NCBI GenBank assembly: GCA_964016885.1 | Contig: OZ024744.1 | Span: 76,012,001 to 76,076,000, forward strand | Length of the DNA stretch: 64,000 bases | Direction: 5' to 3' | Source of the DNA: Eledone cirrhosa | Lineage: Eukaryota | Shown here: in pieces, positions 51,805 to 57,879 of the stretch | Position numbering within the stretch: position 1 is the first letter of the stretch | How the letters are laid out: each line of letters begins with the position of its first letter | Made by a program: the position numbers and the translations under genes | The notes under the pieces: generated by a model | What the model was told of the DNA's origin: nothing | The model's input: the letters and a program-made list of their open reading frames with translations, nothing else | The model's database searches: none

Positions 51805-51886
<82 letters not shown>

Positions 51887-51925
51887 GATATTAACAAATG
51901 GAAACTATATTTATAAAACCATATT

Positions 51926-51990
51926 TATTTTATTATACATATTTCAAGGATACCATGTTAAATTATGGTATGCTTTCATCAGACAAAATA
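51926..51990 (-). ncRNA. Type I hammerhead ribozyme, Penelope-like element terminus
   Basis: TATTTTGT-CTGATGA-AAGCATACCAT aatttaac ATGGTATCCTT-GAAA-TATGTAT-A-ATAAAATA: intact core, 8-bp stem I, stem II, AUA cleavage triplet. Confidence 0.85.
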
Positions 51991-53014
51991 CAATATGTAC
52001 CAGTTTTATAAATAAACATTGACGTACCCTTTCAAAATGCAACCGTTACTTTTGGAAGACATCAAGGATAGTGTTTATTTTAGTAAGTCGTTGTGTTAAG
52101 GAGAAGAAAAAGACGAAGAGAGAGAAAAAACCGAGAGAGAGAAAAGTGGAGAAAGAAAGAAGAAAGAAAAAAGAAAAAAAAAGAAAACAGAGAAAAACAA
52201 TAGAGAGATACCAAACCACCAGACAGAGAGAAAAAATCAAGAGAGAGAAATATTGAGATAGAGAGAGGGGGAGAGAACGAAAACCTTAAGTCATGTCATA
52301 TTAAGTTAAGTTAACAATTGAGATGAAATGAATAAATAAAATTAGAAATATTAATATTCATGAATGGAATGTACATATATAATATGAGAAATTAATCATT
52401 GTTTAACTATGATTAGATATTTAGTTTAAAAATTGAGATCAATATATTAAAAATTGGAATTTAAACATTACGAAATATATATATTGCTAGAGAAATTACC
52501 TATCATATAGCACGTACATATACGCAAAAATACGCATAAATATATATATTCACACACACTCAGAAAATACACACTATATCCACTCCCGCATATAATATAT
52601 ACATACAAAGCATAAATGATTTTTTTAAATTAATGTTATACATCCCTTGTGTTATTAAATAAAAAAATTTTAGTATATATATATAAATATATGGGATTAA
52701 CTTTCATGCATTTATGGCTGTTAAATTATGCCTATCTGCAATCAAATTGTATGGGTACACATGTACATGTACACACACAATTCTTACATATACATATATA
52801 AACAAGTGTGTGCATCCTCACCCAATTGGTAGACTTGCGTCACTCATGCATATATACAGACAGACATATATTCATAAAAATGCATATAACACATGTGTAT
52901 GTATGTTAATACACACACATACATACATAGTCGTATAGAGATAAGTATACATCAATATATTACATAGTATAATTGAGTACATAAAATACAAAAGGATTAT
53001 ATTTTGGAAATATA

Positions 53015-53395
53015 ATTATATCAATATAACTTAAAAACAAAAGAATTCTACAAATATCAAAATATTAAAATATTTTAAAATATTATAGAATATTTTAAGT
53101 TAAAATAATATGTTTAATAGATTTAGTATAGAAATTTATCTTACGTATATTTTATTCAAGATATTGAAAGGACAAACTTTTGAACATTATGAGAAGCTAT
53201 AAGAATAAAAGCAAACCTAATAAAAAATAAATAAAATATTATATCAATATAACTTAAAAACAAAAGAATTCTACAAATATCAAAATATTAAAATATTTAA
53301 AAATATTATAGAATATTTTAAGTTAAAATAATATGTTTAATAGATTTATTTTAGAAATTTATCTTACGTATATTTTACTCAAGATATTGAAAGGA
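53015..53395. repeat. Direct duplication of ~158 bp (period 223) in the Penelope-like 3' region
   Basis: ATTATATCAATATAACTTAAAAACAAAAGAATTC...AAGATATTGAAAGGA starts at 53015 and again at 53238. Confidence 0.9.
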
Positions 53396-53552
53396 TAACC
53401 TTTTCTAGAACAGTTTATTATATTTATATTTATATTTAGGAAGAAAATTTATTTATACTTGAGTACTTAACCAAAGAAAATGAAAAAGGTGAAAGAATCT
53501 AATGATTTATCGACAGGTTTCATATATTAACCAAATTACTTAATTAATTATA

Positions 53553-54155
53553 CTACATTTTAAATTTATATTTATATTTAAACGTTGAGTTCAATCTATG
53601 TCTGCAGCAACTGAATAAATTATTCCTTAAATTAAGGGAATGTTTGGTCTTTAATATAAAGAATATTTCCTCTATACAAAGATCACAATTTTCTGAAGAG
53701 GAATTAAAAGGAGTAGCTTTTGAAATAATATTCCAAATCAGCGAATATTCAACATTATCTCGTTTTAGGTCCCATAATAGGCTAGATAGCGACGTTGAAG
53801 ATTTTTTGTTTGGATCTGTAAAATAATTTTTATGATTATTGAAGCGGGATTTAAACTCTGTGGAGGTAGAACCGACATAATTAAATGAATTTAAATTAGT
53901 TTTTACATTACAATTATAAACTACATTTTTAACTAAGCAATTGTTATTTAACGGACAGTTGGATTTATTTCTACAGTTACAATTATTCGATTGAATATTG
54001 CTTGGGTTATTATTGGTATTTTGGTTAGGTTTTAAATTTCTATTATTAATTCTATTAATATTTTGCGCTAAATTTTTGGTGGAAGAGTAAGTTAATTTTA
54101 TAGTATGTCTATTAAAAATTGAGTAATATCTATGTGTTCTAGGGAAGCGTTTGTC
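53553..54155 (-). pseudogene. Stop-free 200-codon C-terminal fragment of a Penelope-like polyprotein (RT thumb end, Cys linker, GIY-YIG endonuclease), no start codon
   Basis: DKRFPRTHRYYSIFNRHTIKLTYSS...CNCRNKSNCPLNNNCLVKNVVYNCNV...FNYVGSTSTEFKSRFNNHK...STSLSSLLWDLK...WNIISKATPF....CDLCIEE...SLNLRNNLFSCCRHR...KM*. Confidence 0.92.
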
Positions 54156-54438
54156 ATATATATATGTATATATGGAAAAGAATGAAACGAAATTTCATTT
54201 CTCACTCTTAGTACGGCTTGTACTTAAATGTAAGTATGTATGTATACGTACATACATATATGTATACAGACGTACAGTAGTATGTATATATATATATATA
54301 CATGCACACATATATATATGTACGTATGGGCTTACCGAACATTTATTATAATGCTCGGTTTGTTTGTAAACAGCTCGAATTATGCCGTACAGTTTTCAGG
54401 CAATCATCGTCACCTTTTTGTTCAACACTGATACAGGA

Positions 54439-54543: not shown

Positions 54544-54605
<62 letters not shown>

Positions 54606-54608
<3 letters not shown>

Positions 54609-55174
54609 TCAGAAATATTTCCTTCTTCGAGCTAATTCCATTGTAAAAGAATTCATTACACTTAATAATATAACTGCTCCTAGGCTGAGCTGAACGTTGC
54701 CTCATATATACGACTGTTATTTCTAGCAGTACGGTTATGAGACTAGCTAGAAACTGTAAACCATGTGCGTTACACAGTCTTTTAAATTATTTAGAAGTGA
54801 AGCATATCAATTTGTCCCTGGATGTTTACTGAGGAGAGCAGGACATGATATTCCTACACTTATTCATCTCGAAACATATTTGGATTTTAAAGTTTAAACT
54901 TATCTACAGAACAGGTTTGATTTTGAAATTTAAATGTGTCTAAACATCATAGCCATTTGGCAATGCAGTTCGTCTTTGTTGATTTATTATTTTAAATCGA
55001 TATGGACAAACTGTAGTATAATAATTAGTATACTTCATTCTGGCTAAATTTTCTTTTGCAATATAAATACAGATGTGTTGGTATCTGTGTTTCATCATAT
55101 ATATTAGTTTATACACGGCTCAGAAATATTTCCTTCTTCGAGCTAATTCCATTGTAAAAGAATTCATTACACTT

Positions 55175-55183
<9 letters not shown>
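54606..55183 (+). mobile_element. Non-coding hammerhead-containing element: 511-bp unit plus 67-bp terminal direct repeat (retrozyme-like)
   Basis: GGCTCAGAAATATTTCC...CTTAATAATATA is identical at 54606-54672 and 55117-55183. Both flanks are (TA)n and a hammerhead lies inside. Confidence 0.75.
54821..54948 (+). ncRNA. Type I hammerhead ribozyme with extended stem III
   Basis: GATGTTTA-CTGAGGA-GAG...CTC-GAAA-CATATTTGGATTTTAAAGT...ATTTTGAAATTTAAATGTG-TC-TAAACATC: perfect 8-bp stem I, ~20-bp stem III with G.U pairs, GUC triplet at 54938-54940. Confidence 0.85.
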
Positions 55184-55250
<67 letters not shown>

Positions 55251-55259
<9 letters not shown>

Positions 55260-55660
55260 TAAAAGGAAAAGAAAGTGCTGACAAATTTTTCCCAGTGAAA
55301 AATAGTTTAATTAGGAATAAGTAAAAATTAGTAATAAGTATTGGTTAGTATTCACTTTTAGTTTTAAATTTTAAGATTTTACCGGTTGCGCATTTTTAAT
55401 AGTTTTCAAAATTAATTTTGACATAGAGAGCCCGTGATGTTTGCTCTAATCTGATTAGAGCAAACATCACGGGTGCTCTACCTCAACACTATTTTTGAAA
55501 ACCATTAGAAATGCGCAACCGGTAAAATCTTAAAACTTAAAACTAAAACTGAATACTAACCAATACTTATTACTAATTTTTACTTATTCCTAATTAAACT
55601 ATTTTCCACTGGGAACTGGGAAAACTTTGTCAGCATTTTCTTTTCCTTTTACTAATATAT
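55251..55660. repeat. ~410-bp fold-back palindrome centred on 55452
   Basis: Perfect 21-bp inner arms CCCGTGATGTTTGCTCTAATC-T-GATTAGAGCAAACATCACGGG, extending imperfectly ~200 bp each way to TTAGTAAAAGGAAAAG / CTTTTCCTTTTACTAA. Confidence 0.95.
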
Positions 55661-55690: not shown

Positions 55691-55756
<66 letters not shown>

Positions 55757-55884
55757 GAAGTTCTATTTAAATTGTTGGGATACAACAAGCAAATATTTTT
55801 ATAACTGATATAAAGCACTCAACAAATTATTGGAGTAAAAATACGATATATTAATAAATGGAACTATATTTATAAAACCATATT

Positions 55885-55949
55885 TATTTCATTATACATA
55901 TTTCAAGGACACCAAGTTAAATTATGGTGTGCTTTCATCAGATAAAATA
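55885..55949 (-). ncRNA. Type I hammerhead ribozyme, inverted terminal copy
   Basis: Reverse complement of 57715-57779. Confidence 0.85.
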
Positions 55950-57515
55950 TAATATAGAGCAGTTTTATAAATAAATATTGACATACCCTTAAAGAATGCG
56001 ACCATTTCTGTTGGAAGCTCCCAATTTATTCAGTCGCTGCAGACATAGATTGAACTCAACGTTTAAATATAAATTTAAAATGTAATATATAATTAATTAA
56101 TTCTATTAATATATTGAACCTATCGATAAATCATTAGATTCATTCATTTGACTGCTTAAACTCAAGTTAAAAATTTTTTCTTCCTAAGTATAAATAAAAA
56201 TACAAAACTCTTCTAGAGAAACATACTGAAAGCTCTTAAAAGGGGAAAATATTTTATTTGAAAGTTACTCCTATTTTTGAAAGTTTCTGTTTTGAAAGTC
56301 TCTCTTTCTTTTCCTTATGGCTATAAAATTAAGTTAAACATACGAAGAACATTTTTATACTGAATCTATTAAACATATTATTATTTTAAAATTATAACTT
56401 GAAATATTCTATAATATTTTTAAAAATTATATTGATTTAAAGTTATATTGTTTATAATTATATTTCCAAATCGTAATATAATTCCTTTTTATTTTTATTT
56501 TATTTTATTTTATTTTATTTTATTTTATTTTATTTTATTTTATATATATTATGTACTTCAATTATACTATGTACTGTATTTATATATCTCTCTCTCTATA
56601 TGTATGTGTGTATATATATATGTATGTATATATATATATATATATGTGTGTGTATGTATGTATATATATATGTGTGATGCATATCTACCTATATGTGTAA
56701 GTAAGTCTATGTGTATCTATGTGGGGATTGTGTGTATATATATGCATACAAATCGATTGCACTCGTTTATAAGGATTTTCTTAAGATTCGTGATAATCAA
56801 ACCTATATAATAACAGTCACAACTACATAACAGGTGGATTTATTAGATATAAAACTTATATTTAAAAAAATTTGTATAATAACATAAGGTGTGTATAACC
56901 TAAAATTTCCTTTACTATCTTAACATTTGTAACATTTAATATAAGTAAATAACTTAATTTCTTTCACGAGGTTTTGATATTCTCTGTTTTTTCTAAGATT
57001 TTCTCCGAAAAATCTATAAGTTTATGAAAATTCCTATATCTTAAATAAAAAAAATCCTTTATAGTTTGTATGTATATGTATATATATGTAGGTGTATGTA
57101 TATATATTTATATGTATATATATGTGTGCGTATGTATATATATGAATATATTCTTTTAATAATATATAGATTTTTTAATAATATATAGATCTCAATTTTT
57201 AATGTATAGATCTCAATAATTTAAATGATAAACTAAACATTTAATCATATTTAAACAATGGTTAAAATTCTCCTATTATGTATGTATTTTCCATTCACGG
57301 TTATTTACACTTCTCTATTCATCCATTAAATATTTATTCTTTCACTTCATCTCGAAAGTTAAGATAATACAACAACCTATCACTTAGAGCTTTCGCTTTC
57401 TCTTTTCTTTTTTCTTTTCTCTCTCTCTCCTTTTCTTATTTTCCTCTTAGAGTTTGCTCTTTTTTCTCTATTTCTCTTTTTTCTATCTCTCTTTTTTTTC
57501 TCTCTCTCTCTTTTT

Positions 57516-57547
<32 letters not shown>

Positions 57548-57714
57548 CATAACCCAACGGCTTATTTAAATCTACTCTGATTTTAAAATATCCAAAACTA
57601 ATTTACATATTAGTATAAAAAAATTTATAACCCCACTATCCGGGAGCTTCCAACAGAAATGGTCGCATTCTTTAAGGGTATGTCAATATTTATTTATAAA
57701 ACTGCTCTATATTA

Positions 57715-57779
57715 TATTTTATCTGATGAAAGCACACCATAATTTAACTTGGTGTCCTTGAAATATGTATAATGAAATA
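57715..57779 (+). ncRNA. Type I hammerhead ribozyme, Penelope-like element terminus
   Basis: TATTTTAT-CTGATGA-AAGCACACCA taatttaact TGGTGTCCTT-GAAA-TATGTAT-A-ATGAAATA. Predicted cleavage is 3' of 57771. Confidence 0.85.
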
Positions 57780-57820
57780 AATATGCTTTTATAAATATAG
57801 TTTCCATTTGTTAATATATC

Positions 57821-57879
<59 letters not shown>

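What the first reader, a model, noticed from the sequence alone, without database searches (positions are those of the whole stretch)
54606..55183. 511-bp hammerhead unit with exact 67-bp terminal redundancy: candidate retrozyme copied from circular RNA
Seen: a unit with no credible ORF, flanked by (TA)n, whose first 67 bp repeat exactly 511 bp later, with one intact hammerhead inside. Known: non-LTR retrozymes are hammerhead-processed circular RNAs inserted as partial tandems. Inference: a ~1.13-unit insert is what reverse transcription around a 511-nt circle would leave, and the identical repeats imply a recent insertion.
Basis: partly seen in the sequence, partly recalled or inferred. Interest (0 to 1): 0.75.

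Follow-up and report, generated by a model that had tools for sequence, protein, structure and literature searches.

The report
Penelope-mobilised hammerhead repeat with "tail"
This is one copy of an abundant non-coding repeat with a predicted self-cutting RNA fold, whose 67-base end repeat is the stretch between two fixed insertion ends, the footprint likely left by a Penelope-type jumping gene, and whether it was copied from an RNA circle remains untested.

Summary
Observation confirmed: exact 67-bp repeat, 511-bp period, (TA)n flanks, no ORF, and a type I hammerhead fold supported by compensatory changes in five related families. The window's fold looks weak (GUU site, 2-bp helix III). The repeat is neither a one-off nor a random circular permutation: 100 of 113 family segments end at two fixed sites 70 nt apart. 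Head-to-head insertions usually carry one end of each kind. This is the Penelope-like element (PLE) 'tail' signature. Both sites sit just before a GCUC…GAGC hairpin, also found at 5 of 6 ends of three Hydra-clade PLE families here and at 0 of 4 ends of two Neptune-type families. So this is a non-autonomous, probably Hydra-mobilised, non-LTR retrozyme. A circular template fits: 71 of 113 segments cross the ribozyme cut, none starts there, and passes within an insertion share rare variants. It is unproven: 6 of 17 long arrays carry variants shared by only some units, and no RNA run was listed. The scan reported similar families and the hairpin signal earlier in this genome (e1-8805697, e1-10309686). 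New member of a known kind; interest 0.42.

The parts
54545..54605 (.). left (TA)n target run; the 5' junction falls at the unit's own TA-rich stretch (unit 490-511)
54606..55116 (+). one 511-bp non-coding unit of family A
54606..54672 (+). upstream copy of the tail, ending at internal fixed site 2 (unit 67)
54607..54632 (+). hairpin following site 1 (GCUC...GAGC stem), upstream copy
54676..54690 (+). hairpin motif following site 2 (GCUC...GAGC); putative start signal, not the minimum-energy local fold
54816..54909 (+). predicted type I hammerhead: core 54829-54835, GAAA 54871-54874, GUU site with predicted cut after 54894, bulged helix I
55113..55113 (+). fixed site 1 (unit 508), the 'no-tail' 3' end used by many other copies
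55114..55183 (+). 70-nt PLE-type tail between site 1 and site 2; 55117-55183 is the 67-bp terminal repeat; 55183 is this insertion's 3' end
55179..55256 (.). right (TA)n target run

Best explanation
This is a 5'-truncated copy of a non-coding, hammerhead-bearing tandem repeat family whose copies end at two fixed sites 70 nt apart in (TA)n, and it is likely a non-autonomous passenger (non-LTR retrozyme) of Hydra-clade Penelope-like retrotransposons. Shown: fixed 3' ends, variable 5' ends, partial tandems of up to 9 units, head-to-head pairs with one tailed and one untailed end, a hairpin motif just 3' of both ends, and the same motif at Hydra ends. Inferred: the Hydra GIY-YIG/RT protein nicks both strands of (TA)n. 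Each nick anneals to the UAUA just 5' of a hairpin on the RNA, one strand starting at site 2 and the other at site 1. The RT runs upstream through successive units, and the cDNA ends join by microhomology. The window copy would have started at site 2, run one unit plus the tail, and joined (TA)n at the TA-rich site-1 region, which gives the exact 67-bp repeat. For the template I commit, at about 50%, to a ribozyme-cut and ligated circle, against about 40% for an uncut multi-unit transcript.
For: Ends: 100 of 113 family-A segments end within 5 nt of the two sites. One tailed plus one untailed end in 26 of 30 head-to-head insertions (queries contained the tail) and in 11 of 13 from a query not ending in the tail; no tail-tail pair in either set. 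Related families B, D and E show the same two-end pattern. Craig 2021 (PMC8557442) describes partial tandems, inverted 5' copies, a tail at one end only, and (TA)n insertion for Hydra. Frangieh 2024 (PMC11167929) shows the tail lies between two internal RT start sites. Signal: [GA]CUC..GAG[CU] starts within -1..+6 nt of 5 of 6 main ends of three Hydra families and of 7 of 8 ends of families A, B, D, E, but of 0 of 4 ends of two Neptune-type families (the eighth, family D site 1, is mutated in the reference copy but present in other D copies). In the A unit the motif occurs only at the two sites. Hydra copies with 743-aa open frames and RWR, DKT and CxCX5C motifs exist. Hammerhead covariation: C3-G8 versus U3-A8, and A-U versus C-G swaps in helices I and II; family D folds as a canonical GUC hammerhead at its energy minimum. 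One template per insertion: diagnostic sites agree in 179 of 180 tandem and 106 of 107 cross-arm comparisons, against 45% discordance between loci; 82 rare variants are shared by all passes of their insertion. Cut site: 71 of 113 segments cross it and none begins within 10 nt of it (4.6 expected).
Against: No autonomous element with a homologous pLTR was found: a profile of six units hit only separate insertions in 60 PLE loci, so the Hydra link rests on a short motif defined after looking at the data, with a lead from e1-8805697. Neptune-type families here also have two ends in (TA)n. Against a pure monomer circle: 18 sites in 6 of 17 arrays are shared by only some units, and in L229 and L236 such variants span both arms. 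The active hammerhead fold of family A is 11.8 kcal/mol above the minimum. In vitro a PLE prefers unprocessed RNA. In family E, 2 of 45 5' ends lie at the cut itself, which hints at some linear cut templates. Helix-I pair counts are biased by the search pattern.
Confidence: 0.78

Rival explanations
1. Same PLE-driven element, but copied from uncut linear multi-unit transcripts of genomic arrays; the hammerhead is weak or idle and no circle is involved.
For: Arrays of 5-9 units exist as possible sources. Variants are shared by subsets of units, including across arms. The active fold is disfavoured. Unprocessed RNA is the main substrate of an anole PLE in vitro.
Against: 11 of 17 arrays show no subset-shared variants, and 82 rare variants are insertion-wide. 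5' truncation should erode array length in a linear-only lineage (inference). Several long arrays have the canonical GUC site (4 of 5 arrays printed).
Confidence: 0.4
2. The unit is the solo pLTR, or an internal deletion derivative, of an autonomous PLE not sampled here, with the retrozyme label only descriptive.
For: Order of parts as in PLE pLTRs: hammerhead, site 1, tail, site 2. Li et al. 2026 derive retrozymes from pLTRs.
Against: No ORF is contiguous with the unit in the 30 loci whose frames were listed. Units follow each other seamlessly up to 9 times. No pLTR homology in 60 PLE loci. Five families at 56-82% identity keep the 510-560 bp non-coding form.
Confidence: 0.15
3. DNA-level satellite or local duplication: the 67-bp repeat and the arrays arose by slippage or unequal exchange.
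For: Block-like and period-2 or period-3 sharing of variants inside the longest arrays suggests some secondary DNA duplication or conversion.
Against: Dispersed copies on many contigs with fixed 3' ends, variable 5' ends and head-to-head arms.
Confidence: 0.03

Closest known systems
Metazoan non-LTR retrozymes (Cervera and de la Pena 2020, PMC7229834: passages and Discussion read; Li, Clavereau and Pollet 2026, 10.64898/2026.07.22.740005: parts 1-3 of 5 read)
   Same: Non-coding low-GC tandem units with one type I hammerhead each; monomers to multimers; proposed PLE mobilisation through circular RNA.
   Different: The unit (511-525 bp) is longer than the 150-450 bp first described, though inside the 51-972 bp of Li et al. 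The hammerhead has long loops II and III. The parts read do not describe fixed ends, tails, head-to-head arms or a named partner clade. Circles are not shown here.
Hydra-clade Penelope-like elements (Craig et al. 2021, PMC8557442: passages and sections 11 and 15 read)
   Same: (TA)n target, hammerhead, partial tandems, inverted 5' copy, tail at one end; in this genome the same hairpin motif follows the ends.
   Different: No ORF; tail 70 nt against the 30-40 bp quoted for PLEs (Hydra tails here are 63-89 nt); no pLTR sequence homology detected.
Anole Poseidon PAc (Frangieh et al. 2024, PMC11167929: parts 1-2 of 4 read)
   Same: Two internal RT start sites delimit the tail; both DNA strands are cut and extended; a stem-loop lies at the start region.
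   Different: PAc starts at sites not homologous to the cut DNA, with no strand difference reported. Here both sites are UAUA matching (TA)n, and the two ends of an insertion use different sites.
Non-autonomous Chlamys elements such as MRC1 (passage in PMC8557442)
   Same: Non-coding PLE passengers with pLTRs and head-to-tail multicopy insertions.
   Different: Those resemble their autonomous family at the 3' end and mostly lack hammerheads; this one has a hammerhead and shares only a short signal.

Membership tests
Non-LTR retrozyme | Type I hammerhead in each unit | tested here: met
   Core and helices conserved with compensatory changes across families A-E; Rfam gives no hit; structure only
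Non-LTR retrozyme | Tandem copies, dimers to multimers | tested here: met
   Family arrays up to 9.1 units; the window copy itself holds only one hammerhead
Non-LTR retrozyme | Non-coding, GC below about 45-50% | tested here: met
   Longest frame 62 aa, GC 31.7%
Non-LTR retrozyme | Monomer size 150-450 bp (original description); 51-972 bp in Li et al. | tested here: inconclusive
   511-525 bp: outside the first range, inside the second
Non-LTR retrozyme | Self-cleavage of the RNA | not testable with these tools
   Predicted active fold +11.8 kcal/mol in family A, 0.0 in family D
Non-LTR retrozyme | Accumulates as circular RNA | not testable with these tools
   Needs RNA data; only genomic signs for and against
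Non-LTR retrozyme | No primer-binding site or polypurine tract; target-site duplication when present | not tested
   No PBS/PPT search run; a TSD cannot be read in (TA)n
PLE-mobilised element | Fixed 3' ends with optional tail, variable 5' truncation | tested here: met
   100 of 113 ends at two sites; 5' ends spread over the unit
PLE-mobilised element | Inverted 5'-truncated copy, tail at one end only | tested here: met
   26 of 30 and 11 of 13 head-to-head insertions
Hydra-clade passenger | (TA)n target and shared end signal with Hydra | tested here: met
   short motif defined after inspection
Hydra-clade passenger | Sequence homology to the pLTR of an autonomous family | tested here: inconclusive
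   None in 60 PLE loci, a small sample of tens of thousands of candidates
Autonomous PLE pLTR | Flanks an RT + GIY-YIG ORF | tested here: not met
   No contiguous ORF in 30 loci; seamless tandems

The most novel reading that the evidence does not exclude
A Hydra-clade PLE enzyme, likely a dimer, grips one circular retrozyme RNA at two hairpin-marked UAUA sites and primes both strands of a (TA)n break from them, one strand per site, rolling round the circle. The GCUC…GAGC hairpin is then a portable, clade-specific start signal that is enough to make any RNA a Hydra passenger.
Probability: 0.3. Interest if true: 0.72.

Novelty: new member of a known kind. Interest (0 to 1): 0.42.

Why it matters
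That PLEs mobilise animal retrozymes through RNA circles is proposed in print but not shown in the papers read. This family names a candidate partner clade, gives a short cis signal, predicts exact start sites and a strand asymmetry, and has open-frame Hydra ORFs in the same genome, so the proposal can be tested in an existing in vitro TPRT format. The single window copy is otherwise ordinary, and this scan has already noted several such families in this genome.

Tried and rejected
Rfam: no hammerhead hit. Type III and short-helix-III readings of the ribozyme were rejected by inspection of the alignment: the nearer GUU is AUU in families A and E, while the distal site is kept in all five and aligns with the canonical GUC of family D. 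RNA evidence: no RNA holder listed. The four listed runs are contigs of unrecorded library type and add only presence of the family. Search for the autonomous parent: GIY-YIG family search, a Neptune-type RT search, a Hydra protein search and a Hydra DNA search gave no ORF-linked homologue. Pfam family PF26215 is not in the library. A pattern search was mis-specified, gave 4 matches and was not used. A-to-G editing scars (lead from e1-8803865): 15 A>G versus 14 T>C among 82 insertion-wide variants, 15 versus 34 among 248 single-pass variants, Fisher p=0.09; not supported. Pile-up of 5' ends at the ribozyme cut: 0 of 113 in A, 1 of 41 in B, 2 of 45 in E. One search had alignment artefacts at unit 8-12 and 493-495, and one search failed to cut most arrays; one search replaces both. 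A look-up of earlier findings by sequence gave nothing.

Full report
Observation. Bases 54606-54672 repeat exactly at 55117-55183, a period of 511 bp, between two (TA)n runs. The unit is 31.7% GC and has no frame over 62 aa even when read as a circle. Rfam finds no hammerhead, but a type I core is present: C3-A9 at 54829, GAAA at 54871, and a GUU site with a predicted cut after 54894.

The ribozyme fold is conserved, but looks weak in this subfamily. Four sister families (B-E, 510-560 bp, 56-82% identity) keep the core with compensatory changes. C3-G8 occurs in A, D and E and U3-A8 in B and C. Helix II swaps A-U for C-G and G-C for A-U, and helix I has similar swaps (53, 37, 1, 3 and 23 instances, overlapping loci not removed; helix I counts are biased by the pattern). 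Family D forms a canonical GUC hammerhead at its energy minimum, whereas the window's active fold costs 11.8 kcal/mol. Four of five long-array units printed carry GUC at the same site. The circular unit folds at -123 kcal/mol against -95 +/- 5 for 40 shuffles. Cleavage itself is untested.

The family. The window's 3-Gb genome gives 1,560-2,122 first-look candidates, of which about 40 were scored per search. Among 51 fully held insertions from 60 loci (two segmental-duplicate pairs left in), 46 of 81 outward ends lie at unit 64-68 and 26 at 507-511, nearly all running into (TA)n. Thirty insertions are head-to-head; 26 of these have one tailed and one untailed end and none has two tails. Both queries contained the tail, but a query that does not end in it gave 11 of 13. 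With the long arrays added, 100 of 113 segments end within 5 nt of the two sites, while 5' ends are spread over the unit. Arrays reach 9.1 units in one arm. End points are therefore not circular permutations. They are the PLE signature of partial tandems, an inverted 5' copy and a tail at one end (Craig 2021, PMC8557442), where the tail is the stretch between two internal RT start sites (Frangieh 2024, PMC11167929). The window copy ends at the tail site, and its 5' end falls at the unit's TA-rich stretch, a common junction (about nine copies join at 480-508). That accounts for the 67-bp repeat and the 1.13-unit length.

The likely partner. PLEs abound here (10,596, 16,836 and 72,122 candidates). 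Both fixed ends of family A are UAUA followed within 3-4 nt by a GCUC…GAGC stem, a motif found nowhere else in the unit. The same motif follows 5 of 6 main ends in three Hydra families and 0 of 4 ends in two Neptune-type families. The Hydra assignment rests on RWR, DKT and CxCX5C motifs in a 743-aa frame; the label 'Neptune-type' rests on the CX4CxxC linker and partly on recall. The motif is short and was defined after inspection. A six-unit profile found no homologous pLTR in 60 PLE loci. The link is likely, not shown. The site-2 hairpin lies beyond the copied end, so the template must extend 3' of the start, as internal initiation requires.

Circle or linear multimer. For a circle: 71 of 113 segments cross the predicted cut and none begins within 10 nt of it. 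Passes and opposite arms of one insertion agree at 179 of 180 and 106 of 107 diagnostic sites, against 45% discordance between loci (47 loci). Eighty-two rare variants are shared by all passes of their insertion, beside 248 single-pass variants. Against: 18 sites in 6 of 17 arrays are shared by subsets of units, in blocks or with period 2-3, and in L229 and L236 they span both arms. This needs a heterogeneous template or later conversion. Long genomic arrays could supply linear templates, the fold is disfavoured, and PAc uses unprocessed RNA. Family E has 2 of 45 5' ends at the cut. No RNA run was listed, which says nothing either way. I put the circle at about 50% and the uncut multimer at about 40%.

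Comparison and novelty. The element works like, and at family level meets the testable features of, a metazoan non-LTR retrozyme (PMC7229834; preprint 10.64898/2026.07.22.740005). Cleavage and circles were not testable. Those papers propose PLE mobilisation, and the preprint gives phylogenetic support in Xenopus. Searches for retrozymes with PLE tails or inversions, for cephalopod retrozymes and for a Hydra start stem-loop returned no paper describing the fixed ends or the hairpin for a retrozyme. The library is incomplete, and the Hydra supplements of PMC8557442 were not seen. This scan has noted the same kind of element, and apparently this family group and signal, elsewhere in this genome; those are unchecked AI notes and not independent support.

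Verdict. Observation confirmed; interpretation partly supported; new member of a known kind; interest 0.42.

Noticed in passing
window 1-40561: 49-bp tandem satellite of more than 800 copies at 91% matches.
   Followed up: no
window about 51886-54194 (-): 5'-truncated Hydra-type PLE: GIY-YIG C-terminal frame at 53556-54194, hammerhead near 51982, 3' end in (TA)n; its family has 743-aa open frames elsewhere.
   Followed up: partly
window about 55753-57822: Two-armed Hydra remnant with hammerheads at 55941 (-) and 57723 (+); the left arm ends with the tail, the right arm without.
   Followed up: partly
window 55289-55615: Fold-back of two 163-nt arms at 93%, also present in L011 and L023.
   Followed up: no
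window 61098 (-): Another minimal hammerhead motif with a short helix III.
   Followed up: no
L108-L117: Very young Neptune-type PLE: 122 of 122 scored matches at 99-100% identity, many with a 777-aa open frame; by eye its hammerhead has the U3-A8 core, a variant reported in PMC4209133 (part 1 of 4 read).
   Followed up: partly
families B (L078-L107), C (L077), D (L148-L177), E (L178-L207): Sister families of 510-560 bp at 56-82% identity; B and C use a U3-A8 core, D is a canonical GUC hammerhead.
   Followed up: yes
unit position 44 (window 54649 and 55160): G changes to T or A in one pass of several unrelated insertions (L002, L005, L021, L023, L026, L030): a mutation hotspot or a copying error near the start site.
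   Followed up: no
unit positions 8-10 and 19: Subfamily split AAA/T versus GGG/C inside the site-1 hairpin, which looks compensatory.
   Followed up: no
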